Source: a virus
Direction: 5' to 3' (one strand)
Length of the DNA stretch: 64,000 nt
Virus record (IMG/VR): IMGVR_UViG_3300045999_010033
Location: 1 to 64,000 of that record
The first letter of the stretch is position 1. Each line of letters opens with the position of its first letter. Positions 12,265-58,873 of the stretch are shown here, one piece after another. The notes beneath the pieces were generated by a model that saw only the letters and a program-made list of their open reading frames with translations, had not been told where the DNA came from and did not search any database. Made by a program: the position numbers and the translations under genes.

Positions 12265-12283
12265 ATGTTTTTATTTTTATTTG

Positions 12284-12376
12284 TAGTCAGGACAGGATTC
12301 GAACCTGTACAAAGTTATTTACTATTACCTTTGCCAGCTCGGATGCTGGTGTGTCTACCTATTTCACCACCTGACC
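12284..12376 (-). tRNA. class-II tRNA-like element (acceptor GGTCAGG/CCTGACT, D-arm, long V-arm, T-arm ACAGG-TTCGAAT-CCTGT; anticodon loop non-canonical 6 or 8 nt)
   Basis: Manual fold; one of three related copies (also 51344 and 52019). Confidence 0.5.
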
Positions 12377-21004: not shown

Positions 21005-21343
21005 TCATATCATGTATGGTTTAGCGTGTTTATTAACTATCATTTGCTCATTAACGTTTAACCCATCTTTGTATATAGTTGCTATCGGACGTTTATATTT
21101 ATCTAAATTTCTTGAGGATATTTTCACTTTATCGCCGGGTTTCAATATAGTTTCAAGATAAGCCTTAGCCTTTTGGGCCGATTCTTTTAAAATAGGGTCT
21201 TCCGACTTAAGTTCATCAGAATTTATACCATAGAAACGTATATTCGTTTCCCATGTCATATAAAATCCCAAATCAATTTTAGCTTTAATCGTATCGCCAT
21301 CTATTACTTTAATGATTTCTGCGTTGTAATTGTATAATTCCAT
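21005..21343 (-). CDS. staphylococcal-nuclease-like (thermonuclease) protein
   Basis: 'VIDGDTIK' SNase signature; 112 aa. Confidence 0.5.
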   Translation of the reverse strand: MELYNYNAEIIKVIDGDTIKAKIDLGFYMTWETNIRFYGINSDELKSEDPILKESAQKAKAYLETILKPGDKVKISSRNLDKYKRPIATIYKDGLNVNEQMIVNKHAKPYMI

Positions 21344-27104: not shown

Positions 27105-28598
27105 TCACTTCAATTTAGAACGAATCTCATCGAAGGTAATCCGATTGTGGAATGTACCATCTTTGTAGATAGTATTCAACGCACCATGTCGTTCTTCTTC
27201 CCAAGATACTTTATCCTTCAGTTCATAGTTTTTATGATGAAGTTTACCCAATGAATCGGATTCCATTACTTCAACTACCTGCAACAAACCAGTAGCAGAT
27301 TTCTTTGTACCATCATCGGTGATAGGGTCTTTGAAGATTTCTCTACCTTCTTCGTTCACTTCAACATAAGTAGCCTTCATAGCGAAACCGAATGTATCGC
27401 GTGTGTTGTACTGATATGTGAATGAACCCACACCGAACACAATGTTAGTCGAAGCGAATCCCTTACTAGCGAGCCTTTGGCAAATTTCCTCAGCCCTCTC
27501 AAGCGTAATAGAGTCACCATAGATTGCTCCAATGTGAGGGTCTAATACTTTGTAACCCTGCTCATTGATTGTACCGCCAAACACATCCCAAAGCAATTCA
27601 ATCACACCTTTATATGAAGGATGTGTTGCTTGTTCCGCCGAGTACATATCAGGCTTTGTGTTTAAACCACACACAATATCGGTAGGATTACCACTATCAG
27701 GTCTGATTACCAATTTACCATCACGTGCCATAATCTTATCTTTCAGTACAACAACGTGCTCCGTACATACTTTCCACAAGTCCCAAGTATCGGATACAAC
27801 CGAAAGGATACCGGTGGGATATGTGTCCAACAATCTACTGAACGTTCCGATTTCATCATCTTTACTACCTGCACACATTACACTATGTTCGGTTGCATTT
27901 ACACTACCAACAACCATACCTTTTGCTCCATAGAATTTGCGAGCACCGTGAATTACTGGAAGACTATCCGACCCCAAGAACGATGTGGCATGTCCAAGAC
28001 CAGAACTGATTGTTACATCAATACTATCAAGACCACGCATTGAGAAGTCATGTGCCTGCCAATCAACAAACCACGCACGTTCCTTGTCCGTTTTATCCTG
28101 CCACTTCGTCAATACTTTACGATATTGATGTGCTATGGTAGCGGATGTCATAGGCTTCCAAAGCAAGTTAGAAATAATAGTTTCCAAATAGTTCGTAATC
28201 CAATAGAAATCGGGGTGAGTATTACGAATGGTCAGAACCGGCACCTTAATAGGAACGGTAGTACCTTCGGTGATTGCTTTCACTTCAATCGGAAGATAAC
28301 CCAAATCGTGCAACCTTTCAAAGTGCGAAACATCATAGTCAGTACCAAGGTAAAGACTCAGTTCCTCTTTGATTTCAGCGATAACTACATCCTTTGGCTG
28401 ACTGAAAAATTCCTTTTCAAAAGCCTCGTGGATTTCCATCATAACCATTTGCTGTCCAAACGATACGACTTCATCACATCCTTTAGGAGCGTGTTTGTTA
28501 CTACGCGGTGTGAAGTTTGAATATACCATAGTCGTACCTTTGGGATATTGTTGATGGTGTCCTGTCTTGTAACCGTCAGTAAGAAGAAGCGGATTCAT
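27105..28598 (-). CDS. nicotinamide phosphoribosyltransferase family protein (NAMPT/NadV-like; candidate Namat of NARP1)
   Basis: 497 aa; N-terminal 'LLTDGYKTGHHQQYP' matches the NAMPT 'DSYK.THYKQYP' signature. Confidence 0.8.
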   Translation of the reverse strand: MNPLLLTDGYKTGHHQQYPKGTTMVYSNFTPRSNKHAPKGCDEVVSFGQQMVMMEIHEAFEKEFFSQPKDVVIAEIKEELSLYLGTDYDVSHFERLHDLGYLPIEVKAITEGTTVPIKVPVLTIRNTHPDFYWITNYLETIISNLLWKPMTSATIAHQYRKVLTKWQDKTDKERAWFVDWQAHDFSMRGLDSIDVTISSGLGHATSFLGSDSLPVIHGARKFYGAKGMVVGSVNATEHSVMCAGSKDDEIGTFSRLLDTYPTGILSVVSDTWDLWKVCTEHVVVLKDKIMARDGKLVIRPDSGNPTDIVCGLNTKPDMYSAEQATHPSYKGVIELLWDVFGGTINEQGYKVLDPHIGAIYGDSITLERAEEICQRLASKGFASTNIVFGVGSFTYQYNTRDTFGFAMKATYVEVNEEGREIFKDPITDDGTKKSATGLLQVVEVMESDSLGKLHHKNYELKDKVSWEEERHGALNTIYKDGTFHNRITFDEIRSKLK

Positions 28599-28621
28599 AA
28601 TATATGTGTTTATTGTTTGAA

Positions 28622-29524
28622 TTAAATTAAGAAATTGGTAAATACATTGAACTGGTGTGTTATGATTTCATCAGCTTCAATATCTTTGTAAGAGTTTGTT
28701 GTTATAATTTTATTAAAATGTGGAGTAAGTACGTCCAAACCGGCGGAGAAGATACCGTGAGTAACTACCAAATAGATTTGAGCCGTAGGTAATTGTTCAC
28801 GTATTGCTTTAGCCAATTCAATAAAGGTACGTCCTCCATCACAAATATCATCAATGATAACATACTTTAATGGTACATCTGTCTTACTAATCGGTAGATT
28901 CGGTACTTCCGTTTTTATGATTTGCCCCGTCTTTATATCACGGATTTTATTCGCCGTAGCAATTGATTGAACTCCCAATGCTTTAGCTACATCAAATGTT
29001 TTTTTGTATGCGCCGGAATCGGGGCTTATCAAACATAATTCGTCTGGATTAAAGGTTGAGCCTGATATTTTGGATACAGCGAAGTTGATAAATTGATAGT
29101 ATGTATTGGTTGCTTTTTTAAGTCCATTCACACACGCTTCAATTACATCCGAATGTGGATCTAATACCTTAACCCTATCAAAGTCCAAAGAGTTGATAAC
29201 TGGAGAAATAACATCTTTTACATAATTGATTCCACCCTCAACAAATTTTCTATCGGAACGAGCTCCTATAAAGTAAGGAACTGATAAATCAATCTTCATT
29301 GTTTTGTTCAATCCTCTAATTGCTTTCACTCCACAAATAATCAATTCCAAATCGGAAAAGTTATTTAGACGAGATACTATCGTTACATTAGATGTACCAT
29401 GTCGGATTTTATCATGTTCGGAATTGGGAATTTCTAAACTTTGCTGCCCATCGGGGAATTTTGATACCTTATATAAAAGGTTTTCTATTCTATTTGCTGT
29501 GGGATTTGTAAGGTCTAATTTCAT
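28622..29524 (-). CDS. ribose-phosphate pyrophosphokinase family protein (Prs-like; candidate ADP-ribose pyrophosphokinase Adps)
   Basis: 300 aa; 'VIIDDICDGGRTF' PRPP-binding motif; immediately upstream of the NAMPT-like gene. Confidence 0.6.
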   Translation of the reverse strand: MKLDLTNPTANRIENLLYKVSKFPDGQQSLEIPNSEHDKIRHGTSNVTIVSRLNNFSDLELIICGVKAIRGLNKTMKIDLSVPYFIGARSDRKFVEGGINYVKDVISPVINSLDFDRVKVLDPHSDVIEACVNGLKKATNTYYQFINFAVSKISGSTFNPDELCLISPDSGAYKKTFDVAKALGVQSIATANKIRDIKTGQIIKTEVPNLPISKTDVPLKYVIIDDICDGGRTFIELAKAIREQLPTAQIYLVVTHGIFSAGLDVLTPHFNKIITTNSYKDIEADEIITHQFNVFTNFLI

Positions 29525-29918: not shown

Positions 29919-31145
29919 TTATTTTTCGTGTTTCAATAAAAAAGTATTTGATATTACTTTGAATGAGATAGTTCTATCTAAACTACGAATCACTACACCC
30001 TCCCTATCAAAGTTTGGATTAAGTACCGATTTAGCATCAGCGTAACTCAACAATTCACTCACATCATTCGGTAAGATAAAGTTTGTATCTAAAACCGGCA
30101 CAGTCTCCAACCCAAAGGTATGTTCCATCGTAGCCATAAACATCGGAAGGCCATAATAGGTTTGGTTATCAATATCAAAGATGTTAAAGAACCTTACGGT
30201 CTGACCTTTTATCTTATATGGATTACCCTGAATACCCTCACCGATTAACTCACCCTGAATGGAAAGGTTCTTACCATAACTCCTAAGTTTGTTTTCCAAG
30301 TCAAGCTCTCTAGCCACCTTCCAAAATGTGTTTTCCGTTTTAGGTCGTTCAATGCCATCATCACACATAACCATACCGGGTACGAATGGTTCAGGTTCAC
30401 TCAATTCCAAATTACGGCTACACACTCCAAACACACCATCTTTGTAATAGAACGTTGCTGAACTACCATCAAGCTTTTCCGTTACATAGAACTGATGCTT
30501 TGATTGTAATCTCCAGCCTTCATATTCTTTTGTTAAGTTTTGTACACGCTCTTCATCGGTCTTTCTAATGAATGATGGGAACAACCCTTTCACTTTGCCG
30601 GATAGTTCGGCCGGTATTGGTGGCTCATATTTAGTGATACCCAACCTTTCAGTTACATCTTCACCGTCTACTATGGTGATAAGTCCTTTATATAATGTAC
30701 TATCTAACATAGTAAGTGGTAACAACAAACCTTGTGAAACCTGTCCACGCAATCGAATCGTTTTCAATCTGAATCCCTCACTACCATCTTTCATTTTCTT
30801 ATATGAAGATTTACGAAGAAACTCAAACTCATCACAAATCGGTAAGAACGAATCAACTTCACAATAAACACAAAGGTCACCCGGCTTATACTCGCCCTTT
30901 TTAGTTACTACCTTCCATCCGCCAACAACGGCAACTTCGATAGCATCCGCACCATCAATCGGTTGGATATCGGTAATCGTTCTTATACTTGCTAACTTCC
31001 TATCGGTCATAATTACGGAATTTTGTTCGTTTACAAATCTATCATTTTCGGTGAATCCGGCTGAATCGTATTCCGGCACATCATCTTCACTCATTGCTTG
31101 TAAGGCCATATCTTGCCATTCTTTCATTTCATCTTTCATATCCAT
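29919..31145 (-). CDS. ATP-dependent RNA ligase family protein (KxDG nucleotidyltransferase)
   Basis: Motif I 'TEKLDGSSATFY'; 408 aa. Confidence 0.55.
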   Translation of the reverse strand: MDMKDEMKEWQDMALQAMSEDDVPEYDSAGFTENDRFVNEQNSVIMTDRKLASIRTITDIQPIDGADAIEVAVVGGWKVVTKKGEYKPGDLCVYCEVDSFLPICDEFEFLRKSSYKKMKDGSEGFRLKTIRLRGQVSQGLLLPLTMLDSTLYKGLITIVDGEDVTERLGITKYEPPIPAELSGKVKGLFPSFIRKTDEERVQNLTKEYEGWRLQSKHQFYVTEKLDGSSATFYYKDGVFGVCSRNLELSEPEPFVPGMVMCDDGIERPKTENTFWKVARELDLENKLRSYGKNLSIQGELIGEGIQGNPYKIKGQTVRFFNIFDIDNQTYYGLPMFMATMEHTFGLETVPVLDTNFILPNDVSELLSYADAKSVLNPNFDREGVVIRSLDRTISFKVISNTFLLKHEK

Positions 31146-33005: not shown

Positions 33006-33503
33006 TTAAACGTTTTGTTCTAGCTCATCAATGTAATTATCCCAACGTTTCAATTCAGCCACTTTTTTTATTCTACAATTTTTCAAATAATTGTTTATGT
33101 ATCCGATAATGTTACCAGCTCCAATCGGATTGGCGGAATGAACATAAATATCTGGGATGGGAATACCAGTATCCATACTATATTTAACCAACCACTTTGC
33201 GCAATCGTATCCGGTCTTTTCAATTATGTTATCGTAATCAATTTTGTAATTATCTTTCACGTTTCTATAATATTCCAAAATAGCGGATTCACCCAAATCG
33301 TGGTCAAAAGAAATCCTTTCAATATTTTCCAAACCATACTGATGTACTGCCATACAAAATTCATCATAACTACGAACAACAATCCAATTTTGATCCATTG
33401 GTGTTCTCATATCATCAAGATATAACCAAAATGTTTTTTTCATATAACTGTTTTTATTTTTACATATGAAACTCCAACTCCGCAGTATCAAAGTTGTAGT
33501 CAA
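33006..33503 (-). CDS. hypothetical protein
   Basis: ORF track; 3' end overlaps next gene. Confidence 0.45.
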   Translation of the reverse strand: MTTTLILRSWSFICKNKNSYMKKTFWLYLDDMRTPMDQNWIVVRSYDEFCMAVHQYGLENIERISFDHDLGESAILEYYRNVKDNYKIDYDNIIEKTGYDCAKWLVKYSMDTGIPIPDIYVHSANPIGAGNIIGYINNYLKNCRIKKVAELKRWDNYIDELEQNV

Positions 33504-34245
33504 AATTTATCGGAGGATTAACACATTCGTATCTGATATTAAGATTACTTGAATTGAACGTTTGGCAATCGTACCAATCTTTCAGTCCGATTACTTTGTG
33601 CCCCATGCCCTCATGAATATGTCCACAAAAATGTAAATGGGGTTTCACTTCACGCACTCTATGATAAAGATCGGCGCATCCAACATTTTCATTCGTGTTC
33701 AATGTTCGGTCGTTGTATCCATACATCGGAGTATGTGTTATGAGTATGTGAGTATCCATAGGAATCAAATTCCAATGTTCATTCATATCATATCCTCTAT
33801 CCGAATTAAATCCCCATCCACTTCCGAAGCTTGGTGAGTATGGAGAGCCCCATATGTTTATTCCTTCAATACAAACTGAACTATTTTCTAAATAGTGTAC
33901 ACCATTTTTCAGATTACCGAGTAATGTTTTTAACCAATGCGGCTTATCATGTTGAGCAAGTTTAACCCATTCAGTATTGTATCCATTGAATATGTGTCTA
34001 TCAATCCATTCCGACTTAACACGAAACTTTCTTTCACTATCGAACACAATGTCGTGATTACCGGCTATGAATACTTTGTATTTGTATGGTTGGTCGGATA
34101 ACCAACCGATGAAATCTTCTACTTCATCTTTTCTACCGATACTAGTGAAGTCGCCGGAATGAATAAGTATATCGCCACCGGGCAACGTCAACTCACGATG
34201 ATATGTGTGAGTATCGGATATTGCTGTTATGCGAAACTTTTTCAT
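33460..34245 (-). CDS. calcineurin-like metallophosphoesterase
   Basis: 'ISDTHTYH', 'GDFTS', 'GNHD' motifs. Confidence 0.6.
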   Translation of the reverse strand: MKKFRITAISDTHTYHRELTLPGGDILIHSGDFTSIGRKDEVEDFIGWLSDQPYKYKVFIAGNHDIVFDSERKFRVKSEWIDRHIFNGYNTEWVKLAQHDKPHWLKTLLGNLKNGVHYLENSSVCIEGINIWGSPYSPSFGSGWGFNSDRGYDMNEHWNLIPMDTHILITHTPMYGYNDRTLNTNENVGCADLYHRVREVKPHLHFCGHIHEGMGHKVIGLKDWYDCQTFNSSNLNIRYECVNPPINFDYNFDTAELEFHM

Positions 34246-34371: not shown

Positions 34372-35667
34372 TTACCAAGTAATAACCGTATCATCGGCCT
34401 GCTCTTCGGTAAAGAGAGCCTCTTCTTTTTGTTCAGCCTCTTCCGTCTTGATGTACTTCTGAATGAGCTGTTTCATAAACACACGCTCACTATCGAGTCC
34501 ACCATCGTTACTGAAGTATGGAAGGATTGCGATTTCAGCCGCCTCCATAAGAGAGAAGCCATCGTAAATCAAACCAGCTGCCTCCACATTCACACGCGAA
34601 GAAACGATAGTCGATACTTTACTCATATCGGTCTTAATCATTTCACGAGTGGTGCTAGCGATTTCAGCGAGAGCGTTCAGAGAATACTCATCGGCTTCAG
34701 GGAATTTGAACTTCAAAAGAGCAAGTTCGTTTTCCTTATCCAACAGGTCCATCTCAATCGTAACGAAACGGTCCATAATGGCACGGTCCATAATACGAGT
34801 CGAGGTGTATTCGTTACCGATGTTAGCGGTAGCGATGAAGGTAACACCATTAGCAACTTTGATAACCGGTGAACCTTCTGCCTCATCAAGACGAAGATAA
34901 CGCTGACCGGAATCAAGAACCGTCATAAGGATGTTCCACGCTTCGGGGTGAGCACGGCTAATCTCGTCAAGCAGGATGATTGCGTTCGGAGTGCTGATAG
35001 CCTTCACAAAGGCGGATTCGCTGAAGAACGTTCCATTCTCTTTGTTGAAGTGCGTATTACCTACAAGTGTTGCGCGTGGGTCCTGCGTAGCACCAAGGTT
35101 GAAATAAAAATCGGGACGTTTCAGAGAACGAACCAATGATTGAGCTGCAAGTGTCTTACCACAACCGGTAGGTCCGACCATCATAATGTTCTTACCACGA
35201 ACGGCAGAACGAATAAGATACTTCCATTTCAATTCGGTAATGAAAAGACCGGCGGGTTTAAGTTCCTTACCGGCTTCATGGATGAACTGCTTCAACTGCT
35301 CATGCGTTTCAAACGCCTCACTCACGGAGTTAACTTCGTTTTCCTGAATAGAAACTGCGGCACGTTTGAACTCATCCATATCAACAAGTTTGTAAGCAAT
35401 CTTGCCACTCGCTGTAACGTACCCACGAAGTGCCTTGCCTTCATCATGTGCTTGCTTCATTTTGGCTTTGGAAATACCGGGCACTTTAGCGGCAGGTTTA
35501 CCATTGGTATTCATCAACGCAAACGATTCTCCGAACTCAACGACCTGATAGAAATCATTCGTGTACTCAATCGATTTTTTAGCAGTTACACGCTTAGTGG
35601 TTGAACGCTTAACACTCTTTGCTGCAGTTTTACGAGATGCAGTGCTACGATTTTTTCTGATTGCCAT
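34372..35667 (-). CDS. CobS-like AAA+ ATPase (MoxR family) with basic N-terminal tail
   Basis: Walker A 'GPTGCGKT', Walker B 'ILLDEISRA'; adjacent to vWA protein. Confidence 0.6.
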   Translation of the reverse strand: MAIRKNRSTASRKTAAKSVKRSTTKRVTAKKSIEYTNDFYQVVEFGESFALMNTNGKPAAKVPGISKAKMKQAHDEGKALRGYVTASGKIAYKLVDMDEFKRAAVSIQENEVNSVSEAFETHEQLKQFIHEAGKELKPAGLFITELKWKYLIRSAVRGKNIMMVGPTGCGKTLAAQSLVRSLKRPDFYFNLGATQDPRATLVGNTHFNKENGTFFSESAFVKAISTPNAIILLDEISRAHPEAWNILMTVLDSGQRYLRLDEAEGSPVIKVANGVTFIATANIGNEYTSTRIMDRAIMDRFVTIEMDLLDKENELALLKFKFPEADEYSLNALAEIASTTREMIKTDMSKVSTIVSSRVNVEAAGLIYDGFSLMEAAEIAILPYFSNDGGLDSERVFMKQLIQKYIKTEEAEQKEEALFTEEQADDTVITW

Positions 35668-38025: not shown

Positions 38026-38214
38026 TTATAGTGTGAAGTCCTCGTCGGAATCCACACCTTTTACCTTCATAGTTTTTTGAGGACGATTTCCAATCACTGT
38101 AATTTTTGTTGTTGGTGTAGAATTTGTTTTGTTACGCGTGTTGATGATATCTTTCAATTCAAGAATTTCTTTTTTGATTTCATCTAACAATTCTAAAACT
38201 CTTTGTTCGTTCAT
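38026..38214 (-). CDS. hypothetical protein
   Basis: ORF track. Confidence 0.4.
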   Translation of the reverse strand: MNEQRVLELLDEIKKEILELKDIINTRNKTNSTPTTKITVIGNRPQKTMKVKGVDSDEDFTL

Positions 38215-38729
38215 TTTGTATCGTTTAATTCGTTTAAGATGGAAATGATAAATTCGTAACCTTTGTTCACTTCATCTGCCCAATCATCTTTAATATCATT
38301 CCGAATGATTTTAGCCAAATGTCTTACATTACTACTATCTCCAAAATCGTACATACGTCCAGATCCGATTACTTTGCTCTTCATCATCTGCCCTCCCATC
38401 AATATCGCCATATAGTTTAAGTATATGTGTGGTTGCGCAGATTTGTAGTCCAAGCCACGTAGATAATCACAATACAATCTTGCGTTCGGCCCCAGTGTAG
38501 TGATATCAATAACACCAAGTTCTGTCAAATCATCCAATATCAAATCCGCTCTGAATAAATCAGTACGTGGTAGTCCGAATTTAGACTCGATTGTATCAAA
38601 TATATTGTATTGTACCGTCAGATATCGACCATACTCTTCGTGAGTCAATTCACCTCGCATTAACCTTTGATTGAATGGAACGGATTCTGCCTCTTTATGT
38701 TTGGCCGTAGTTGCTTCTCTTAAATTCAT
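38211..38729 (-). CDS. heme-oxygenase-like protein
   Basis: 'LREATTAKHKEAESVPF' N-terminal region and 'YLNYMAILMGGQMMKSK' resemble HO-1 proximal helix and GG distal-helix motifs. Confidence 0.5.
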   Translation of the reverse strand: MNLREATTAKHKEAESVPFNQRLMRGELTHEEYGRYLTVQYNIFDTIESKFGLPRTDLFRADLILDDLTELGVIDITTLGPNARLYCDYLRGLDYKSAQPHIYLNYMAILMGGQMMKSKVIGSGRMYDFGDSSNVRHLAKIIRNDIKDDWADEVNKGYEFIISILNELNDTK

Positions 38730-39815: not shown

Positions 39816-40160
39816 TTATATTTTTATTAAATCAAAAACTCTATCAATGACATCTTTTGATTCTTTCAATCCTAATCCGGTCGCATCTTTCAATTCTTTA
39901 ACCGCTTGTAGCTTATGGCCAGATTTAGCATACGACATAATGGTGGTTATGGTAGAACGACTGATAACATCGTACCCCACAAACGAATGAAAATCAAATG
40001 CGGATTTCAATATAGCATCATCACTATTCGGTAGATTATCTTTTGTATCTATCAAAGTTTTCAAAATCCAAATGATTGCCGAATTATGCCCAATCTCCTT
40101 ATCGTTTGTAGGATGGGTGTATAGTGCATTAATCAAAGTTTCTTTTGTTATTTGCGCCAT
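39816..40160 (-). CDS. hypothetical protein
   Basis: ORF track. Confidence 0.45.
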   Translation of the reverse strand: MAQITKETLINALYTHPTNDKEIGHNSAIIWILKTLIDTKDNLPNSDDAILKSAFDFHSFVGYDVISRSTITTIMSYAKSGHKLQAVKELKDATGLGLKESKDVIDRVFDLIKI

Positions 40161-42313: not shown

Positions 42314-42769
42314 TTATACCTTTACCAAATGATCTGCTGCGTATGTGGCTATCGGACCAAGAGACTTGAATCTGCAGCGATATCCCATACCTTCCACAAG
42401 TCCAACGGCTTGACGGAATACTTCATTGGATTTGAATTTGGGATCTGGGTTGATGTCAATATCAATGAATTTCACTTTGGGCAAACCGGCCACTTTCAAT
42501 TCTTCGGCAGCTTCAATCGCATACCAAACTTCATTCAACAATCGAATGGAACGTGTAGGTTCTTTATCAGCTTTCCATCTACGAAAAATGACATGAGCAC
42601 CTTTACCTGGCGTATGCATCGCAACTACGATAGCATAGATTGTTCGGTCGGTAAAGTTTTGTGAGTCGCATCCAATTAGAATATCCACATCGGTATGTTC
42701 TTTAAGGTATTCTTTCATATATGGAACTAACTCGAATTCGTCTTTCTGATAAAGTTTTTTGAATTTCAT
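42314..42769 (-). CDS. hypothetical protein
   Basis: ORF track. Confidence 0.5.
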   Translation of the reverse strand: MKFKKLYQKDEFELVPYMKEYLKEHTDVDILIGCDSQNFTDRTIYAIVVAMHTPGKGAHVIFRRWKADKEPTRSIRLLNEVWYAIEAAEELKVAGLPKVKFIDIDINPDPKFKSNEVFRQAVGLVEGMGYRCRFKSLGPIATYAADHLVKV

Positions 42770-43933: not shown

Positions 43934-44323
43934 TTATAATACTTTTTCTGATTTTAGTTTTGTTTCAAATTTGTCAAATCGGGAATCAATATAAGAACGA
44001 TTTTCATCAATTCTTTTATGAATTTCCGGCTCAACCTGATCATGAACATTTTTCTGAAATTCATCAATACGTTTATGGATTTCACCCGAAACTGAATCAA
44101 TATCGCGATGTACATCAGGTAGTATGTGTTCATACACATCCCTTTTAAATTCATTGAGTTCTCTATTTGTATTTTCAAACATTGAATGCGTGTTTGAATA
44201 CACATCATCGAATCTCTTAACGTGCTTACTTACCATTATATTTGCCCTCACGATGCCGATAACCATACCAATTAGTATGACTGTAGCTATCCCAAGAACA
44301 TAGGCAATATACATTTGTTCCAT
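43934..44323 (-). CDS. membrane-anchored protein with internal repeats (start trimmed to MEQMYIAY)
   Basis: Listed ORF extends N-terminally over a tRNA-like gene; TM helix then repeated 'IHKRIDE/HRDIDS' units. Confidence 0.5.
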   Translation of the reverse strand: MEQMYIAYVLGIATVILIGMVIGIVRANIMVSKHVKRFDDVYSNTHSMFENTNRELNEFKRDVYEHILPDVHRDIDSVSGEIHKRIDEFQKNVHDQVEPEIHKRIDENRSYIDSRFDKFETKLKSEKVL

Positions 44324-44360
44324 AGTTTGTTTTCTCCTATATGTCAAAGAACGATAATCG

Positions 44361-44471
44361 TGCCCCAGGCGGGGGTCGAACCCGCACTCGCTTTCAGCGA
44401 ACAAGATTAACGCCGCGACGTGTTGAAGCTTGCGTTAAGTCTTGCATGTCTACCTATTCCATCACCAGGGC
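44361..44471 (-). tRNA. tRNA-Leu(TAA)-like gene with 26-nt insertion in the anticodon loop
   Basis: Acceptor, D-arm, AC stem CAAGA/TCTTG, V-arm TCGC-TGAAA-GCGA and T-arm all fold; loop is 33 nt CTTAA[..]AA with internal 7-bp hairpin TTAACGC/GCGTTAA. Confidence 0.5.
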
Positions 44472-44526
44472 CCATACCTACCTTAATAGGTATGTTTGTC
44501 TATAATGTAAATATAGTAAAAGTTTT

Positions 44527-45594
44527 TTAATTATCCAAATCTTTCCGAAAAGGTTTTGCGTATTTAGGGCGAATACATTTCCATATAATAGAATCGTAAT
44601 CCCTCCCATCTAACATAGAAAATAATATTGATGCATGATTATAACGGATTGCTTTGATTGCAAACTCTTTTCTGCTCAAATTTTCACTACGAATGATTGA
44701 GAATATTTCCAAATAATCACGTTTAATATTTTCAAATCTAACTACCAAGTCTTTTACGGTATCCTTTACCCACGTATCAAATTCGTCCGGCACTCTTTCC
44801 AATAACTCATTCAAATCACCACCGGTCCGCAACAATTCCCAGATATCTACATTCGAAACATTGGTGATTATCTTATGAAGTCTTACATACTCTTCACCTT
44901 TGATTTTCATTCTCTTCCCACCTTTGAAACGTATTACATAACCTTCGGCATCATTTGAAATCATATCCTTCAACTTAGTGAAGTCAGTAACACCATTGTA
45001 CTTTCTAACAACTCTTACATCGGTAAAAAGTGCTACTGATTTAGTCAAAGTTTCAAATTCAATTTCGTCCAAAGTATCTCTATCATATGCACCCAACAAT
45101 ACCAAACCCTCAAATGGGTAGCGGCAGACTATCCGATTCTCATCATATATGATTTCAAAAAGGTAAGTCCAATTTTTTCTCAATCCAGTTGTAGGATAGT
45201 TTTTCAATATAGATAATCCCTTCAACATTTCAGTTGCCTTAACGGCTTGCTCTGAAACGAATGAACCTCTCGTTGCTACTATCCAATCTCCGTTATAGTA
45301 AAATGCAATTCCTAAAGAACCGTCCATCTTTTCAAAGACTTCAAATGATTCGTTTGGAATTTCACTATTGGATAATTCTTCCATATTGAAAAATTTTGGA
45401 AATGGTTTGGCTACCACAGTGCCTTCATTATCCAAAACCAATCCACGGCAATCCAATGTAACTGCATCCCACAATCGGTCGTATTGGCACGTTCTGCTGT
45501 AATTGTAGATTGATAAAGGTAACGTTGGATGGTCTTGCTTAACTATCAATCCTCGTCCGATATAATCGTTCAATATGTTTAATGGATATTTCAT
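44527..45594 (-). CDS. RNA ligase family protein (KxDG; Rnl2/DRB0094-like)
   Basis: 'FEKMDGSLGIAFY' motif I; 355 aa; upstream of Pnk-like kinase. Confidence 0.6.
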   Translation of the reverse strand: MKYPLNILNDYIGRGLIVKQDHPTLPLSIYNYSRTCQYDRLWDAVTLDCRGLVLDNEGTVVAKPFPKFFNMEELSNSEIPNESFEVFEKMDGSLGIAFYYNGDWIVATRGSFVSEQAVKATEMLKGLSILKNYPTTGLRKNWTYLFEIIYDENRIVCRYPFEGLVLLGAYDRDTLDEIEFETLTKSVALFTDVRVVRKYNGVTDFTKLKDMISNDAEGYVIRFKGGKRMKIKGEEYVRLHKIITNVSNVDIWELLRTGGDLNELLERVPDEFDTWVKDTVKDLVVRFENIKRDYLEIFSIIRSENLSRKEFAIKAIRYNHASILFSMLDGRDYDSIIWKCIRPKYAKPFRKDLDN

Positions 45595-45995
45595 AATTTT
45601 ACACTAAAACGTTTCCGCATTTTTTCCAAAGTCTCATCCGGTACACCATGTACGGATTTATTACCATGTCTATTTTCTACAATCAATGATACAACGGTGT
45701 ATCCATAGCTCTTTGCTAACTTCAAATATGGTTCAAGTTCCCTTTCGGTAGTTGCCGTATTGGATACTACAATCTCTTGTCCATACTGAGTCGTTTCACT
45801 CATTTGCATCAATTCCTCAACACGCTTTTGACAATCCAAATGGGCTTCATGCAATTTCGAAGCGTCAAAATTGTAGTTACCGTTTGAATCGTAAAAGTAT
45901 TGGTCTGCCTCAAACACATTATTTGAAAACATATATTTAGCAAATGAGCTTTTACCACTACCGGGTAAACCACGTAATATGATTAATGTTTTCAT
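45591..45995 (-). CDS. polynucleotide 5'-kinase (T4 Pnk kinase-domain-like)
   Basis: 'MKTLIILRGLPGSGKSSFA' closely resembles T4 Pnk N-terminus 'MKKIILTIGCPGSGKSTWA'; 134 aa. Confidence 0.65.
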   Translation of the reverse strand: MKTLIILRGLPGSGKSSFAKYMFSNNVFEADQYFYDSNGNYNFDASKLHEAHLDCQKRVEELMQMSETTQYGQEIVVSNTATTERELEPYLKLAKSYGYTVVSLIVENRHGNKSVHGVPDETLEKMRKRFSVKL

Positions 45996-47449: not shown

Positions 47450-48112
47450 TTATTTATATTTTTCTACTGATTCATGATGGTCGAAACTCATTAGGCTTTT
47501 GATTGGTTGCCTTCTCATACGGGTAGCAATTTCACTTACCGAAATCGGCCTCAAACCATTACCGTCCACACCAACATCCATCATTTTACCTGGTCCAATT
47601 CTACTAGCCATAGGTAAATGAACGTGTCCATGCAAATGAATTGCACCATTGGCCATTTGGTCCCAACTGGCAATAGGAAAGTGCATCAGTACAAACAATT
47701 CACTACTAACAAGCGGAGTACCCACATTCCGTTTTACAGTTAAATGTAAGTATTTGTTTACGGAACTGAAATGTGATTGACATCCTTCTTTGTTTCTCTC
47801 AATATGATGGTCGTGGTTTCCGGTGATGATGTGAATGTTCTTACATACGATACGATTACGGAAGGCTTCGATTTGCTCAAACCCACCAAAACTCCAATCG
47901 CCCAAATGAAAAAGAATATCATCTTGTCCGACTTCGGCGTTGATGTTATTCACCAATGTATCGTTCATTTCATCCAATGATTTGAAATCTCTACACGTCA
48001 CCGGGTCTTTCCATTGTGTTGTAGTGGAACAGATGTTGGCGTGATTGTAGTGTGTATCAGATGTGAACCACAATTGTTGACCTTTATTTAAACTTATTTT
48101 CATTTGTTTCAT
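47450..48112 (-). CDS. calcineurin-like metallophosphoesterase
   Basis: 'FTSDTHYNH', 'GDWSFGG', 'GNHDHH' motifs. Confidence 0.6.
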   Translation of the reverse strand: MKQMKISLNKGQQLWFTSDTHYNHANICSTTTQWKDPVTCRDFKSLDEMNDTLVNNINAEVGQDDILFHLGDWSFGGFEQIEAFRNRIVCKNIHIITGNHDHHIERNKEGCQSHFSSVNKYLHLTVKRNVGTPLVSSELFVLMHFPIASWDQMANGAIHLHGHVHLPMASRIGPGKMMDVGVDGNGLRPISVSEIATRMRRQPIKSLMSFDHHESVEKYK

Positions 48113-52018: not shown

Positions 52019-52096
52019 TAGTCAGGACAGGATTCGAACCTGCATGGTCACTCCTTTGTGTACACCGCGAGCTGCGTTACCATTCGCCACCTGACT
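52019..52096 (-). tRNA. AGTCAGG class-II tRNA-like element (no canonical anticodon stem found)
   Basis: Acceptor AGTCAGG/CCTGACT, D-arm GCG-AATGGTAA-CGC, T-arm GCAGG-TTCGAAT-CCTGT. Confidence 0.45.
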
Positions 52097-53358: not shown

Positions 53359-53880
53359 TTATTTATTTAGTTTACTAATACACTCATCAACTTTGTCACG
53401 CAACCTACCACCATTTCCGTGGTCACCATTCACCTGAACGTGTCTCCATTGTGGAACACGCATCCATTTGAATTGGCCGGCGAGATTCAAATCATCAATG
53501 GCAATCCAATTTTTCACTCCGTTATCCTTTACCCATTTACGAATTTCTGCCGCACGTTCCCATTCGATTGGTGGACGGCTCATTTTCTTCCATAGGTCTT
53601 GATGTGTGGTGATATCAATCAACAAGTGACCAGGTATTCCAAAGTGTTCAAATACTCGTTTCATTTGGATAAAACTGAAATGCTTTCTCCAATCCGAGCT
53701 CAATACAAGTCGTGCATCAGTCTCACGAAGAACTTTGTGTAGAGCCTGGCAATCTTCCTCTACCCATCTGTATGGGATTTTGAACAATTGTGAACCGGCG
53801 TGCAGTTCAACACGGCCCGTTCCCCATGTTCCCCATGCCAATGGGCCATCAACATCAATGAATATGATTTTATTGTTCAT
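53359..53880 (-). CDS. HAD-family phosphatase (T4 Pnk 3'-phosphatase-domain-like)
   Basis: 'IIFIDVDGPLA' DxDG(T/P) motif I at N-terminus. Confidence 0.55.
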   Translation of the reverse strand: MNNKIIFIDVDGPLAWGTWGTGRVELHAGSQLFKIPYRWVEEDCQALHKVLRETDARLVLSSDWRKHFSFIQMKRVFEHFGIPGHLLIDITTHQDLWKKMSRPPIEWERAAEIRKWVKDNGVKNWIAIDDLNLAGQFKWMRVPQWRHVQVNGDHGNGGRLRDKVDECISKLNK

Positions 53881-55989: not shown

Positions 55990-57060
55990 AAAGGTGAGAT
56001 TACCCTTTGTTGAGAACAGCCTTTAGAAAGATTATTAGTTCCTCTCTTATCCACCACCTTTTGAGCGGTATCCGTTCAGTGTCGGTTAGTAATGCTAACC
56101 ACTCATTAAGTTACTGACTACTCTCTTATTACTCCCCTTCTTCTACCCTGCCGAGCAGATTCACACTTGCGGTGTTAGAAGCTTTTCGTAAGAATCACAG
56201 ACCTCTTGCGGAGGTATCGTGGCTGGGAACAACTCCCAACTATGTAGACACCTTTCATCCGTAACTGATGGGCACTTATGCTTCATTTTGATTTTATAGT
56301 TTTGCTACCAAATGCAAGTATAAAGTTGGTTTGTAGATTGATTCAGGTAGTGGCCCATCTGCCAGCTCCCTCACCTTTTGAGTGAGGAAATACTAAACTA
56401 CCCGATGTGATATCCCTATCACCATATTTTAAGTCTGCTTCATAACTCATGCTTTGGTAAGCGAAGGTTAAGGGCAACAACGACACCACTCGTACTTTAC
56501 CATACCTTTCGGTTTTAAGTGAACTCTAATATTGGATAACGAAATGATACGAAGGGATTAAGTTCGTACTTCTCACATATACCCTATGGGTTATTCCTAT
56601 TATCCTTCCGGATTCAAATGAACTATCTACTTAGCCCATTCACCCAGACACCTCACCTACAGCCTTGCCGTCAGTTACTAAGTCCGAGTGGTATCCCACT
56701 TGCCTACTCAACCTCTTTTGGGAGGCGCATCGGTGCTTAACCAAACACCAACACTTTATCCTACTTTCGTAGTTTATTTAACGACCATAGGCGGCCGATT
56801 TGTACTATGTAACGCGAGGTTACTATGTACTCATTTCGTAATGTAAAAGAACTTTAATGTGAACCAAACTTACGCCCTATTAAGGATACTCCGTTTATAC
56901 TACTTTCACATCTGAATCGGTAGTGCGATTTTACTAAAGATAAGTAAAGTTTTTCAAATTACCAAATCTTTATTCGTTGAACATTTTCGGTTATGTTTAT
57001 TTACACCATATAATACTTCCTACTTCTGAACAAGTTTATAAAGTTAAGTAAAGTTTTTCA
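55990..57060. ncRNA. about 1.07-kb ORF-free region flanked by tRNAs; candidate large structured ncRNA
   Basis: No ORF of 60 aa or more in any frame of ORF track; internal short repeats (CACCTTTTGAG, AAGTAAAGTTTTTCAA). Confidence 0.35.
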
Positions 57061-57659: not shown

Positions 57660-57810
57660 AGTGGACGTGGTGGGAGTCGAACCCACGTCTTGATAAGAAA
57701 TCCTACCACCAACGTATCACAAGTTTATTCCTACATTCGGGTTGGACACCTATCTAACATTCTCACACCGTGTTAGCCGACGGTGATAGTGGTTCGATTC
57801 GGCCACTATG
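57660..57810 (-). pseudogene. tRNA-like remnants (T-arm GTGGG-TTCGACT-CCCAC at 3' side; class-II D-arm-like GCATAGTGGCCGAAT at 5' side)
   Basis: Fragments resemble the class-II tRNAs elsewhere but no consistent acceptor pairing. Confidence 0.3.
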
Positions 57811-58132
57811 CCACATAGAGAATCACATTCTATTTTAATCCCACGATGTGTGCGGGAGCGGTTACGCAGCTACTGCGTACTCAGCGTTGGCGTATGTGTT
57901 GCCAGTTATTCTTCGATACAATATTAAGGGATAGTATCATTTCCCTACTTGTGATGGTAACACTCACATACCAATCAATTACCAATACACGCCCATATTT
58001 ATAAGAACTATATATCTCCCATTTTTGGTCGATAACCAAAGTTACTACTTTTTTTTGGATTTACCAAACATTTCGGAAAATATTTTTTAAATCGTTGAAA
58101 ATCAACCGATTACGTATTAAAAAAAGAAATAT

Positions 58133-58873
58133 CTATCGGTTTTTCCTCAAAATTAGGGCCGTTTCCATCCACTTTTTTCCTATCGGATTGACCACCGGGG
58201 CATCAACAAATCGGCGAACGACTCGTTTTACATCTGAATCCGGATTAGAAGACTCTGAGTTTTCAACAATATACAATCGGTTTCCAAATATCGTGCGATA
58301 TTCACCCAATGCAGACTGGCATTTATTCCATAACCCTTCAACAAGCTCGTTTGATATGGAACGTTCCCGCTCACTATTACGTTTCAATGCAACTTCTAAT
58401 GTAGTATTAACGAACACCATTGCCGCATCATAACCGGCGGCTTCCATTTCAGATTTACGGCCGGCAATGTAAGCCGGATTGGCACCGGTACTATCCATTA
58501 TCATTCCCAGTCGCCCTTCCATATACATCTTACGTGTCGCAGATACCATACGAAATGCCTTTTGTCGTATACCGGAGCCAGTTTTATCTCGGCCGGTATC
58601 TATTACTGATGAATAAAACTCCGGGTCTTCATCTCGTATCTTACCCAACTCCTTTGGATTGATACCATTTTTTTGTAGAAACGCCTCAAAAGCATGATCC
58701 GAATTTATTACCTTCAATCCCATGCCGGTAAGGCTTGAACGCTTCGGCAATCCAAATATCTGGTCTATGATATACGATTTACCCGAACCGGGTCCACCTG
58801 CAGTAAACACACATTTGAGTACACCACGATTGAATACTCCTTCGTTTAATAAGGGTTTTAATAGGATAGCCAT
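58133..58873 (-). CDS. P-loop nucleoside/nucleotide kinase-like protein
   Basis: 'FTAGGPGSGKSY' Walker A; 246 aa. Confidence 0.5.
   Translation of the reverse strand: MAILLKPLLNEGVFNRGVLKCVFTAGGPGSGKSYIIDQIFGLPKRSSLTGMGLKVINSDHAFEAFLQKNGINPKELGKIRDEDPEFYSSVIDTGRDKTGSGIRQKAFRMVSATRKMYMEGRLGMIMDSTGANPAYIAGRKSEMEAAGYDAAMVFVNTTLEVALKRNSERERSISNELVEGLWNKCQSALGEYRTIFGNRLYIVENSESSNPDSDVKRVVRRFVDAPVVNPIGKKWMETALILRKNR

What the first reader, a model, noticed from the sequence alone, without database searches (positions are those of the whole stretch)
44361..44471. tRNA-Leu(UAA)-like gene carrying a 26-nt insertion inside the anticodon loop
All canonical elements fold: acceptor GCCCTGG/CTGGGGC, D-arm, anticodon stem CAAGA/TCTTG, Leu-type variable arm and T-arm. 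The anticodon loop is 33 nt instead of 7, reading CTTAA[26 nt]AA. Removing the insert gives the canonical Leu(UAA) loop CTTAAAA. The insert forms its own 7-bp hairpin (TTAACGC/GCGTTAA). This position is the classical site of the cyanobacterial/plastid tRNA-Leu(UAA) group I intron, but that intron is about ten times larger. A 26-nt insertion would need a different, possibly protein-dependent, removal mechanism. Otherwise it yields a non-decoding tRNA-like RNA.
Basis: seen in the sequence. Interest (0 to 1): 0.7.

Follow-up and report, generated by a model that had tools for sequence, protein, structure and literature searches.

The report
Conserved 26-nt mini-intron in phage tRNA-Leu
The only tRNA-Leu(UAA) gene seen in this phage window is interrupted just after its anticodon by a 26-base hairpin that recurs in other phages with compensating mutations, so it looks like a real tRNA intron that proteins must remove, a kind I found no description of for bacteria or their viruses.

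Summary
Window 44361-44471 (minus strand) is a tRNA gene: Rfam tRNA scores 38.4 bits against a cut-off of 29. Exactly 26 nt (44409-44434) lie between A36 and A37 of the anticodon loop. Seven relatives carry the same gene uninterrupted, with loop CTTAAAA, two of them at the same genomic position.

The insert is not a one-off. The identical 111-nt allele occurs in several independent assemblies with different gene order. Two other phage lineages carry a 26-nt insert at the same site with a different sequence. Across the three variants the insert helix and the tRNA stems keep pairing through compensatory changes, so decay and artefact are very unlikely. In all three lineages it is the only Leu(UAA) gene in the DNA available.

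It is not a group I intron, not a bulge-helix-bulge intron, and not the 79-114-nt Lak megaphage type. The two splice points lie in one helix, offset to leave 2-nt 3' overhangs, which is RNase III product geometry. An Rnl1-type RNA ligase, a kinase and a phosphoesterase lie just upstream.

Best reading: an intron removed by proteins through cutting and re-ligation (about 0.5). Splicing itself is not shown. The main rival is a functional RNA that stays unspliced.

The parts
44361..44471 (-). Interrupted tRNA-Leu(UAA) gene, 111 nt. CCA is not encoded.
   Evidence: Rfam tRNA 38.4 bits. ARAGORN with introns allowed finds it. Aligned with uninterrupted orthologues.
44435..44471 (-). Exon 1 (37 nt): acceptor 5' strand, D arm, anticodon stem 5' strand, C32 U33 and the anticodon U34 A35 A36. 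The anticodon TAA is at 44435-44437.
44409..44434 (-). 26-nt intervening sequence CGCAAGCTTCAACACGTCGCGGCGTT, between A36 and A37.
   Evidence: Absent from 7 orthologues. Unique in the window. Same length and site in two other sequence variants.
44361..44408 (-). Exon 2 (48 nt): A37 A38, anticodon stem 3' strand, long variable arm, T arm, acceptor 3' strand and discriminator A73.
44432..44438 (-). 5' arm of the junction helix, TTAACGC (U33-A36 plus intron nt 1-3). The 5' splice point lies inside it, after A36.
   Evidence: MFE folds. RNAalifold consensus. Covariation at intron pairs i2-i23 and i3-i22.
44407..44413 (-). 3' arm of the junction helix, GCGTTAA (intron nt 22-26 plus A37 A38). The 3' splice point lies inside it, before A37, offset 2 bp from the 5' splice point.
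44527..45594 (-). Rnl1-family RNA ligase (355 aa). It ends 55 nt upstream of the tRNA. Candidate sealing enzyme (inferred).
   Evidence: PF09511 E = 1.8e-19. The adjacency is not conserved: two ORFs intervene in L112.
45591..45995 (-). P-loop kinase (134 aa, AAA_33), overlapping the ligase start. Candidate 5'-OH polynucleotide kinase (inferred).
   Evidence: PF13671 E = 4.8e-10.
47450..48112 (-). Calcineurin-like metallophosphoesterase (220 aa). Candidate 3'-end healing enzyme (inferred; the match is weak).
   Evidence: PF00149 E = 2.5e-4, just above the cut-off. Lies directly upstream of the kinase-ligase gene pair in L102 and L103.
44473..44494 (.). 8-bp palindrome between the ligase stop codon and the tRNA 5' end. 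A similar palindrome precedes the uninterrupted orthologue in L109. Role unknown; possibly a processing or terminator hairpin.
44321..44360 (-). Conserved element CGATTATCGTTCTTTGACATATAGGAG...ATG directly 3' of the tRNA. It leads into the 129-aa membrane-protein gene (43934-44323) and marks the orthologous position in relatives.

Best explanation
This is the phage's working tRNA-Leu(UAA) gene carrying a genuine, evolutionarily maintained 26-nt intervening sequence between A36 and A37.

In the transcript, the intron ends pair with the anticodon-loop bases. This prolongs the anticodon stem into an interrupted rod of roughly 15 base pairs: the 5-bp stem, a bulged C32, a 7-bp helix, two small internal loops and a 5-nt cap. 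The anticodon is buried in this rod, so the RNA cannot decode until the intron is removed.

The intron is far too small to be a ribozyme, so proteins must remove it (inferred). An endonuclease would cut both strands of the junction helix and an RNA ligase would re-seal the 7-nt loop. The two cut points are staggered so that both products carry 2-nt 3' overhangs, which is the signature of RNase III-type cleavage. That chemistry gives 5'-phosphate and 3'-OH ends that the phage's Rnl1-type ligase could join directly. If the nuclease instead leaves 2',3'-cyclic phosphate and 5'-OH ends, the neighbouring kinase and phosphoesterase could heal them first, as in T4 repair of PrrC-cut tRNA.

Shown here: the insert, its conservation and covariation, its exclusive occupancy of the Leu(UAA) slot in the DNA held, and the presence of repair enzymes. 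Inferred: that it is excised, by which nuclease, and by which ligase.
For: 1. The insertion is derived and precise. Seven orthologues have loop CTTAAAA; L109 and L113 carry the uninterrupted gene at the same genomic position.
2. It persists. The identical 111-nt allele is found in L098, L111 and L112, and partly in L101. These come from different samples, with flanking SNPs and a different gene order.
3. It is a family. Whole-IMG/VR pattern scans found two further 26-nt variants at the same site, in L242/L247 and in L225/L243.
4. Structure is selected. 96% of cells pair. Nine pairs changed on both sides, against a shuffle mean of 3.0 (0 of 500 shuffles reach it) and 0-2 in the slid controls. 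These include intron pairs i2-i23 (GC/AU), i3-i22 (CG/GC) and i7-i19 (CG/UA). The tRNA stems also covary, so the tRNA body stayed under selection. RNAalifold finds the same helix independently.
5. The exon and junction pairs U33-A38, U34-A37, A35-Ui26, A36-Ui25 and Ci1-Gi24 never vary, as expected if CUUAAAA must be regenerated.
6. The in-silico spliced products of all three variants are called tRNA-Leu(taa) by default ARAGORN.
7. No other Leu(taa) gene is found in the window or in L242/L243. In contrast, 69 of 79 related tRNA-cluster loci carry an intronless one. TTA makes up 23.5% of Leu codons in the window's ORFs.
8. The splice points are staggered by 2 bp within the helix.
9. An Rnl1 ligase, a kinase and a metallophosphoesterase lie next to the gene, and further RNA-repair genes are in the window. 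A metallophosphoesterase lies about 1 kb from the tRNA in L243 and a 2H phosphoesterase about 2 kb from it in L242.
10. T4 Pnkp and Rnl1 are known to restore anticodon loops cut by PrrC (PMC3400036).
Against: There are no RNA data: neither a spliced nor an unspliced species has been seen.

No RNase III motif appears in the six-frame translation. No EndA or RNase III family hit was found among about 77 window ORFs, so the nuclease would have to come from the host, lie outside the window, or be novel.

No protein gene is linked to the intron across lineages except DUF458, which is a general tRNA-cluster gene. Ligase adjacency is not conserved, and Rnl1 plus kinase are common in relatives without the intron.

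The rod has only about 15 interrupted base pairs. From my own knowledge, engineered tRNA-scaffold chimeras with comparable stems accumulate uncut in E. coli.

Only three distinct sequences underlie the covariation. The window and the related loci are partial genomes, so a second Leu(UAA) gene elsewhere cannot be excluded.

These phages also carry many tRNA-like RNAs with non-tRNA centres, which shows that tRNA-shaped RNAs that do not decode are tolerated or used here.
Confidence: 0.5

Rival explanations
1. The RNA functions without being spliced, as a natural tRNA scaffold. The tRNA body gives stability, processing and probably leucylation. The prolonged anticodon arm is the working part, for example a decoy or binding site for a host anticodon nuclease or another RNA-binding factor, or a charged Leu-tRNA-like molecule kept out of decoding.
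For: The whole 111-nt structure, including the hairpin and two bases of its apical loop, is conserved. The same phage group is full of tRNA-like genes with a conserved acceptor, D and T arm but unrelated centres (window 12283-12376 and 52019-52096). No splicing nuclease was identified. From my own knowledge, bacterial LeuRS does not read the anticodon, so the unspliced RNA could still be charged, and engineered tRNA scaffolds with such stems are stable in E. coli.
Against: It occupies the Leu(UAA) slot that is otherwise filled in 69 of 79 related clusters. It keeps every anticodon-loop base invariant while the adjacent helix pairs covary. It derives from an ordinary decoding tRNA at the same locus. 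A payload would not need to regenerate CUUAAAA precisely or to keep a constant 26-nt length.
Confidence: 0.27
2. The insert is mainly a selfish or protective DNA element. It splits the highly conserved anticodon-arm DNA of tRNA-Leu(UAA), which is the target of a free-standing homing endonuclease. This makes its carrier immune, and the insert is copied into intronless alleles together with the nuclease gene (collaborative homing). This explains why it spreads. It does not replace the need for removal at the RNA level.
For: Each intron-bearing allele is closest in exon sequence to an intronless allele: 90.7%, 88.5% and 93.2%, against 77-86% among the intron alleles. This is a patchy pattern typical of gain or loss by gene conversion. 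In L243/L225 a GIY-YIG (SegE-like) endonuclease gene starts about 50 nt downstream of the interrupted tRNA, and three HNH genes lie nearby. A 46%-identical GIY-YIG gene lies about 650 nt from an intronless Leu(UAA) in L156, and a Leu(UAA) 5' half broken in the anticodon loop lies in L230, which also carries endonuclease homologues.
Against: There is no homing-endonuclease gene next to the tRNA in the window, in L112 or in L242. tRNA sequences are short, so the exon tree is noisy. The conserved RNA structure and constant length are not explained by DNA-target disruption alone.
Confidence: 0.15
3. The gene is a recently inactivated tRNA pseudogene. A chance insertion or palindromic slippage destroyed the anticodon loop, and the host supplies tRNA-Leu(UAA).
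For: Phage tRNA sets turn over quickly. A close relative (L100) lacks the whole module of tRNA, membrane-protein gene and tRNA-Ala, so the module is dispensable at least in some strains. Identity among near-identical strains alone has little statistical power.
Against: Three divergent variants share the same site, the same length and compensatory changes in both the insert and the tRNA stems. All tRNA hallmarks are intact. The 7-bp helix that reaches flush into the exon bases is unlikely for a random 26-mer.
Confidence: 0.04
4. It is a degenerate or miniature member of a known intron class, either a group I intron (self-splicing) or an archaeal/eukaryal bulge-helix-bulge intron.
For: It lies in the anticodon loop of the tRNA best known for a group I intron. 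Exon 1 bases pair with the intron 3' end, which is the same topology as in bulge-helix-bulge substrates.
Against: It is 26 nt against roughly 200 nt or more for a group I intron. No Intron_gpI match was found even at E <= 10 or in related loci. The Leu-restoring junction has A at -1 and U as the last intron base, not U and G. There are no 3-nt bulges flanking a 4-bp helix: the fold is one continuous helix with a single bulged C. No EndA-like protein was found.
Confidence: 0.02

Closest known systems
Group I intron of cyanobacterial and plastid tRNA-Leu(UAA)
   Same: Same tRNA and same loop. It interrupts the gene's only functional form and has a patchy distribution.
   Different: That intron is self-splicing, hundreds of nt long and lies at CUU/AAAA (34/35) with U-1 and omega-G. 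The intron here is 26 nt, lies at 36/37 with A-1 and a terminal U, and has no ribozyme core.
Archaeal and eukaryal tRNA introns (bulge-helix-bulge, EndA/TSEN plus RtcB or Trl1)
   Same: Short and dependent on proteins. The intron pairs with anticodon-loop bases, and exon 1's 3' end pairs with the intron's 3' end. Removal by cutting and re-ligation is the logic proposed here. PMC4090602 appeared in my literature search but I did not read it; the rest is my own knowledge.
   Different: The canonical site is 37/38. Those introns need two 3-nt bulges around a 4-bp helix, which are absent here. No EndA was found. The setting is a bacteriophage.
The 'enigmatic' tRNA introns of Lak megaphages and other jumbo phages (PMC6784885; PMC13037316)
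   Same: These are introns in phage tRNA anticodon loops that are not group I, have identical sequence across samples and have no known removal mechanism. A Lak-type intron also sits in a Leu(UAA) gene in L129.
   Different: Lak introns are 79-114 nt, are predicted at 37/38 and contain a tRNA-like T arm. This family is a plain 26-nt hairpin at 36/37, in a different phage group that carries GOLLD RNA and tmRNA.
RNase III-excised intervening sequences of bacterial 23S rRNA
   Same: An extra helix inserted into a conserved RNA, which a double-strand-specific nuclease is expected to cut on both strands with a 2-nt 3' stagger (my own knowledge of RNase III).
   Different: rRNA intervening sequences are longer and the fragments are not re-ligated. 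A tRNA would need sealing. Cleavage here is only inferred from geometry.
T4 PrrC / Pnkp / Rnl1 anticodon-loop repair
   Same: The same enzyme families (Rnl1 ligase, polynucleotide kinase, phosphoesterase) are encoded next to the tRNA. The substrate is a broken anticodon loop (PMC3400036).
   Different: In T4 the break is host-inflicted damage at 33/34 of tRNA-Lys. Here the break would be a programmed double cut that releases 26 nt.
Engineered tRNA scaffolds (RNA inserted in the anticodon stem for stable expression; my own knowledge)
   Same: The same architecture: a tRNA body with a foreign hairpin replacing the anticodon loop.
   Different: Those are artificial, and the anticodon-loop bases are not preserved.

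Membership tests
tRNA (Rfam RF00005) | Covariance-model score at or above the gathering score over the full model | tested here: met
   38.4 bits against 29, model positions 1-71. The L243 variant scores 45.1 bits.
tRNA-Leu(UAA) | Long variable arm (type II body), A73, and anticodon UAA in a 7-nt loop once the insert is removed | tested here: met
   Alignment with 7 uninterrupted Leu(UAA) genes. The spliced sequence is called Leu(taa).
tRNA-Leu(UAA) | Decodes UUA/UUG on the ribosome | not testable with these tools
   This needs RNA and translation data. As transcribed, the loop is 33 nt and the anticodon is paired.
Group I intron | Catalytic core (P3-P9) detectable by Intron_gpI; length of roughly 200 nt or more | tested here: not met
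   26 nt. No match at E <= 10.
Group I intron | U before the 5' splice site and G as the last intron base | tested here: not met
   The Leu-restoring junction has A36 and U26. The only placement that gives U and G yields a nonsensical Lys(UUU) anticodon in a Leu body. The rule is quoted.
Bulge-helix-bulge tRNA intron | Two 3-nt bulges on opposite strands separated by a 4-bp helix and carrying the splice sites | tested here: not met
   The MFE and consensus folds give a continuous 7-bp helix with a single 1-nt bulge (C32).
Bulge-helix-bulge tRNA intron | A splicing endonuclease (EndA/Sen family) available | tested here: inconclusive
   No such Pfam hit among about 77 window ORFs. The host and the rest of the phage genome were not seen.
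Lak-type phage tRNA intron | 79-114 nt, with an embedded T-arm-like element and a conserved 5' motif | tested here: not met
   Compared with Table S6 of PMC6784885. The insert here is 26 nt with no T-arm element.
RNase III substrate | Both scissile bonds lie within one double helix, offset to leave 2-nt 3' overhangs | tested here: met
   The cuts A36|Ci1 and Ui26|A37 lie in the helix U33-A38 ... Ci3-Gi22, 2 bp apart. This is met in silico only.
RNase III substrate | Actually cleaved by RNase III; about two helical turns of duplex | not testable with these tools
   The rod is about 15 bp with interruptions, which is borderline. No RNase III gene is seen in the window.
Rnl1/Pnkp-type heal-and-seal system | An Rnl1-family ligase with a polynucleotide kinase and a 3'-phosphoesterase encoded together | tested here: met
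   PF09511 1.8e-19 and AAA_33 4.8e-10. Metallophos 2.5e-4, a weak match.
Rnl1/Pnkp-type heal-and-seal system | Acts on this tRNA | not testable with these tools
   Inference from proximity only. The proximity is not conserved.

The most novel reading that the evidence does not exclude
Bacteriophages possess a third route of tRNA splicing. A 26-nt hairpin intron pairs with the anticodon. It is excised by an RNase III-type staggered double-strand cut, made by a host enzyme or an unrecognised phage enzyme. The loop is then re-sealed by the phage's own Rnl1-type repair ligase. On this reading the 'RNA repair' cassettes of large phages double as a splicing machine. The intron keeps the U-rich anticodon hidden from host anticodon nucleases until maturation, and it spreads between phage tRNA-Leu genes with the help of homing endonucleases.
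Probability: 0.2. Interest if true: 0.9.

Novelty: new variant of a known kind. Interest (0 to 1): 0.78.

Why it matters
[quoted passage not shown] Enzyme-dependent tRNA splicing is treated as an archaeal and eukaryal trait.

A conserved intron far too small to be a ribozyme, sitting in the only Leu(UAA) gene found in each of three phage lineages, implies one of two things. Either a cut-and-ligate tRNA splicing pathway operates in infected bacteria, or there is a new class of non-decoding tRNA-shaped RNAs.

It also offers a small, testable model for the unexplained Lak and jumbo-phage tRNA introns. It suggests a second job for the widespread phage Rnl1/kinase/phosphatase cassettes.

There is a practical consequence as well. 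Default tRNA finders miss such genes, so phage tRNA repertoires and codon-usage inferences are incomplete.

Tried and rejected
1. **Is the insert repeated or mobile within the window?** No. It occurs only once, allowing up to 3 mismatches.

2. **Close relatives in GenBank phages.** None; only tRNA-Ala hits.

3. **First gapped patterns tied to the window's exact stem.** They found nothing in IMG/VR. JGI metagenomes gave one chance hit and GTDB genomes gave six chance hits, none in a tRNA. A looser pattern mostly matched ordinary Leu(UAA) genes through the AATC in their T loop and had to be filtered. The refined pattern found the family.

4. **DUF458 / PF04308 RNase H-like protein (42314-42769) as an intron-specific nuclease.** It was the only protein shared near all three intron alleles. 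However, 76 of 79 loci carrying a homologue contain tRNA genes (1,401 in all), and 69 of the 79 have an intronless Leu(UAA). It is rejected as intron-specific. Its invariant D, E, D and D residues still suggest an active nuclease with some role at tRNAs.

5. **RNase III or EndA encoded in the window.** No motif and no Pfam hit.

6. **Homing endonuclease next to the window's tRNA.** None. One is present only in the L243/L225 lineage.

7. **L094 and L095 tRNA-like genes as further examples.** L094 looks like Phe(GAA) with a 26-nt insert at 33/34, but its geometry is different (an internal loop, not a staggered helix) and I had no intronless orthologue, so it was left unresolved.

8. **Group I intron in L230, L129 or L243.** None found by Rfam.

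9. **The neighbouring 129-aa protein as a route to relatives.** No hits in IMG/VR. It was productive through the protein database instead.

10. **Statistical test of conservation among near-identical strains.** Not informative: at about 97% identity, 26 unchanged nt are expected by chance.
Full report
**What is there**

The finding lies on the minus strand of a phage region packed with RNA genes. Across the window ARAGORN and Rfam find about 28 tRNA genes, a tmRNA (57661-57994) and a GOLLD RNA (55991-56405, 296 bits).

The Rfam tRNA model matches 44361-44471 over its full length at 38.4 bits (cut-off 29), with 29 nt where 3 loop nt are expected. ARAGORN misses the gene by default and finds it once introns are allowed. 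The minimum-free-energy fold of the 111 nt is a cloverleaf whose anticodon arm is prolonged. It consists of the 5-bp stem, a bulged C32, a 7-bp helix TTAACGC/GCGTTAA, two small internal loops and a 5-nt cap. The arm alone is more stable than 199 of 200 shuffles.

**Identity and exact site**

ARAGORN calls the gene Lys(ttt), because the TTAA...TTAA repeat allows another intron placement. That placement is wrong. The body has the long variable arm of Leu, and the window already has a normal Lys(ttt). It has Leu(tag) and Leu(caa) but no Leu(taa).

Seven uninterrupted tRNA-Leu(UAA) genes from related phages align base for base with it and all have loop CTTAAAA. The window has 26 extra nt exactly between A36 and A37.

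L109 and L113 carry the uninterrupted gene at the same genomic position. In both it lies directly upstream of the conserved element ...GTTCTTTGACATA...ATGGAA that also follows the window's gene. The insertion is therefore derived and precise.

Exon 1 is 44435-44471, the intron 44409-44434 and exon 2 44361-44408. The joined exons are called tRNA-Leu(taa).

**Not an artefact and not a private mutation**

The identical 111-nt allele occurs in several independent assemblies.
- L098 is a Logan assembly identical to the window.
- L101 is a JGI contig with 97% DNA identity; the contig ends inside the insert.
- L111 is an ENA contig with two SNPs in the 60 nt upstream of the gene.
- L112 is a strain with a different gene order: ligase, 163-aa ORF, 92-aa ORF, tRNA, membrane protein.

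A close relative, L100, lacks the whole module.

**It is a family, and its structure is selected**

Scans tied to the window's own stem sequence found nothing. A broader scan of IMG/VR then found two further versions:
- L242/L247, with insert CACAAGTTTCTATTCGTCACGGTGTT;
- L225/L243, with insert CGGGGTTAGCCACTCGCTTCTCCGTT.

Both are 26 nt, both lie at A36|A37 of a tRNA-Leu(UAA), and both fold the same way.

On the three-way alignment, 96% of cells in the proposed structure pair. Nine pairs changed on both sides, against a shuffle mean of 3.0 (0 of 500 shuffles reach it) and 0-2 in the slid controls. Within the intron, pair i2-i23 is G-C or A-U, i3-i22 is C-G or G-C, and i7-i19 is C-G or U-A.

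The acceptor, D, anticodon and variable stems also show compensatory changes. The tRNA body has therefore stayed under selection while carrying the intron. RNAalifold predicts the same junction helix on its own.

The five pairs that involve exon bases or the junction (U33-A38, U34-A37, A35-Ui26, A36-Ui25, Ci1-Gi24) never vary. Three sequences are few, and the tool's own caveats apply. Even so, the pattern is what is expected if the loop CUUAAAA must be regenerated, and it is hard to reconcile with a decaying pseudogene.

**Is it the working Leu(UAA) gene?**

No other Leu(taa) gene is present in the window or in the 14-kb loci L242 and L243. By contrast, 69 of 79 related phage tRNA clusters carry an uninterrupted one. 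TTA is 23.5% of the Leu codons in the window's ORFs, and the phage's Leu(CAA) tRNA cannot read it. The caveat is that all of these are partial genomes.

**What it is not**

- *Not a group I intron.* It is 26 nt and gives no Intron_gpI match even at E <= 10. The junction bases are A and U rather than U and G. The classical Leu(UAA) intron lies at CUU/AAAA, two nt upstream.
- *Not a bulge-helix-bulge intron.* There is one continuous helix with a single bulged base and no 3-4-3 motif.
- *Not the Lak megaphage type.* Those introns are 79-114 nt, contain a T-arm-like element and are predicted at 37/38. One of that type does sit in a Leu(UAA) gene in L129.

My searches of the held literature found phage tRNA introns described only as 'enigmatic' predictions. 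They found nothing on a short hairpin intron or on a bacterial protein-dependent tRNA splicing pathway.

**How it probably works (inference)**

The anticodon is base-paired, so the transcript cannot decode. Removal must be enzymatic.

The two splice points lie in the same helix and are offset by 2 bp. Exon 1 would end with a 2-nt 3' overhang (A35 A36) and the released hairpin would also carry one (U25 U26). That is the product geometry of RNase III-family enzymes, which leave 5'-phosphate and 3'-OH. These ends are what an Rnl1-type ligase joins.

Such a ligase is encoded 55 nt upstream (PF09511, E = 1.8e-19). It is overlapped by a P-loop kinase, and a metallophosphoesterase lies two genes further on.

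The window holds more RNA-repair genes:
- a HAD 'Swiss Army Knife' phosphatase (53359-53880);
- a second RNA ligase (29919-31145);
- a cyclic-phosphate-processing receiver domain (33006-33443);
- a further phosphoesterase (33460-34245).

So ends of either chemistry could be healed and sealed, as T4 does for PrrC-cut tRNA-Lys (PMC3400036). From my own knowledge, T4 Pnkp plus Rnl1 can even replace the yeast tRNA-splicing ligase. A phosphoesterase also lies within 1-2 kb of the interrupted gene in L243 (metallophosphoesterase) and in L242 (2H family).

**Weaknesses of that model**

No nuclease was identified. There is no RNase III motif in the six-frame translation, and no RNase III or EndA hit among about 77 ORFs.

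The only protein shared near all three intron alleles is the DUF458 RNase H-like protein. It turned out to be a general resident of phage tRNA clusters, nearly all of which have intronless Leu(UAA).

Ligase adjacency is not conserved, and the ligase-kinase pair is common in phages without the intron. The rod of about 15 interrupted base pairs is short for RNase III. The 2-nt stagger could arise by chance, at very roughly one in ten by my estimate.

**Rivals**

The serious alternative is that the RNA works unspliced, as a natural tRNA scaffold or decoy. These phages carry many tRNA-like genes with a conserved AGTCAGG.../...CAGGTTCGAATCCTGTCCTGACTA frame and unrelated centres. From my own knowledge, LeuRS ignores the anticodon. 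Against this reading stand the invariant anticodon-loop bases, the constant length and the vacant Leu(UAA) slot.

A complementary DNA-level reading concerns how the element spreads. Each intron allele's nearest exon relative is intronless. In L243/L225 a GIY-YIG homing-endonuclease gene abuts the interrupted tRNA. The insert may therefore also protect the conserved anticodon-arm DNA from such nucleases and spread with them. No such gene adjoins the tRNA in the window.

**Verdict**

This is a conserved, structured 26-nt intervening sequence at position 36/37 of phage tRNA-Leu(UAA) genes. It is neither group I, nor bulge-helix-bulge, nor Lak-type. The most likely reading (about 0.5) is an intron removed by proteins through cutting and re-ligation, with an RNase III-type cut plus Rnl1 sealing as the specific and still weakly supported mechanism (about 0.2). 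A functional unspliced RNA is the main rival (about 0.27). RNA-level data would decide between them.

Noticed in passing
window 12283-12376 (-) and 52019-52096 (-); also L100:343-438, L104:122-224, L106:1511-1610, L108:882-1007 and 3839-3963, L113:3158-3261, L272:7891-8012, L283:7836-7955, L277:5089-5208: A family of tRNA-like genes. They share a strongly conserved acceptor stem (AGTCAGG/CCTGACT), a Leu/Tyr-like D arm and a T arm (CAGGTTCGAATCCTG). In place of the anticodon and variable region they have unrelated centres, giving total gene lengths of 78-125 nt. Some centres are conserved between phages. Members often sit at the position that tRNA-Leu(UAA) occupies upstream of the membrane-protein gene. 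They look like natural tRNA scaffolds. Function unknown.
   Followed up: partly
window 55991-56405 (-) and 57661-57994 (-): A full-length GOLLD RNA (296.6 bits) and a phage-encoded tmRNA (tag GNTYANAEYAVAA) embedded in the tRNA cluster. The same trio of GOLLD, tmRNA and tRNAs occurs in L094.
   Followed up: no
window 42314-42769 (-): A DUF458 / PF04308 RNase H-like protein with invariant D, E, D and D residues. Of 79 IMG/VR loci carrying a homologue, 76 contain tRNA genes (1,401 tRNAs in 980 kb). It is a hallmark gene of phage tRNA clusters with unknown function, possibly a tRNA-processing nuclease.
   Followed up: partly
L129:6371-6536: A tRNA-Leu(UAA) gene with an intron of about 79 nt of the Lak-megaphage type (5' motif TTAGCAGAGTAAACTGT plus an embedded T-arm-like GGTTCAAATCC). 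This intron class therefore occurs in IMG/VR contigs beyond the Lak genomes in which it was described.
   Followed up: no
L243:6770-7414 (-) = L225:7716-8360 (+); L156:967-1602; L230 around 1411 (-): A GIY-YIG (SegE-like) homing-endonuclease gene abuts the interrupted tRNA-Leu in L243/L225, with three HNH genes nearby. A 46%-identical homologue lies near an intronless Leu(UAA) in L156. L230 has a Leu(UAA) 5' half that ends in the anticodon loop and is followed by an ORF. The Leu(UAA) anticodon arm may be a homing target.
   Followed up: partly
L094:7291-7391 (-) and L095:10947-11048 (+): Two homologous 101-nt tRNA-like genes (Rfam tRNA 42-44 bits). L094 reads as tRNA-Phe(GAA) with a 26-nt hairpin insert between U33 and G34. 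This may be a second short-intron family with a different junction geometry.
   Followed up: partly
window 29919-31145, 33006-34245, 34372-35667, 53359-53880, 58133-58873 (all -): An unusually rich set of RNA-repair genes besides the Rnl1-kinase pair: a second RNA ligase (PHA02142 OB fold plus PF09414), a cyclic-phosphate-processing receiver domain, a metallophosphoesterase, a MoxR-type AAA ATPase, a HAD 'Swiss Army Knife' phosphatase and a Zeta-toxin/AAA_33 kinase.
   Followed up: no
window 27105-29524 (-), 38211-38729 (-), 39816-40160 (-): Auxiliary genes: nicotinamide/nicotinate phosphoribosyltransferase plus a PRPP-synthetase-like protein (NAD salvage), a heme oxygenase, and a small protein with a ribosomal L7/L12 C-terminal domain.
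   Followed up: no
window 44335-44352 (-); L225:7525-7551; L296 near 3830; L113 near 475: A recurrent motif, GTTCTTTGACAT(A/T)..., lies directly before tRNA genes or before the RBS of small genes in this phage group. It also gives a weak partial match to the 5' end of Rfam's DUF2693 RNA (14.6 bits). It may be a phage-specific promoter or processing signal.
   Followed up: no
window 12768-13094 (-) and 21005-21343 (-): A small GIY-YIG domain protein (108 aa, just below the Pfam cut-off) lies one gene (ORF 12388-12765) upstream of the odd tRNA-like gene at 12283-12376. A 112-aa staphylococcal-nuclease homologue lies further along. Neither was examined as a candidate RNA-processing enzyme.
   Followed up: no
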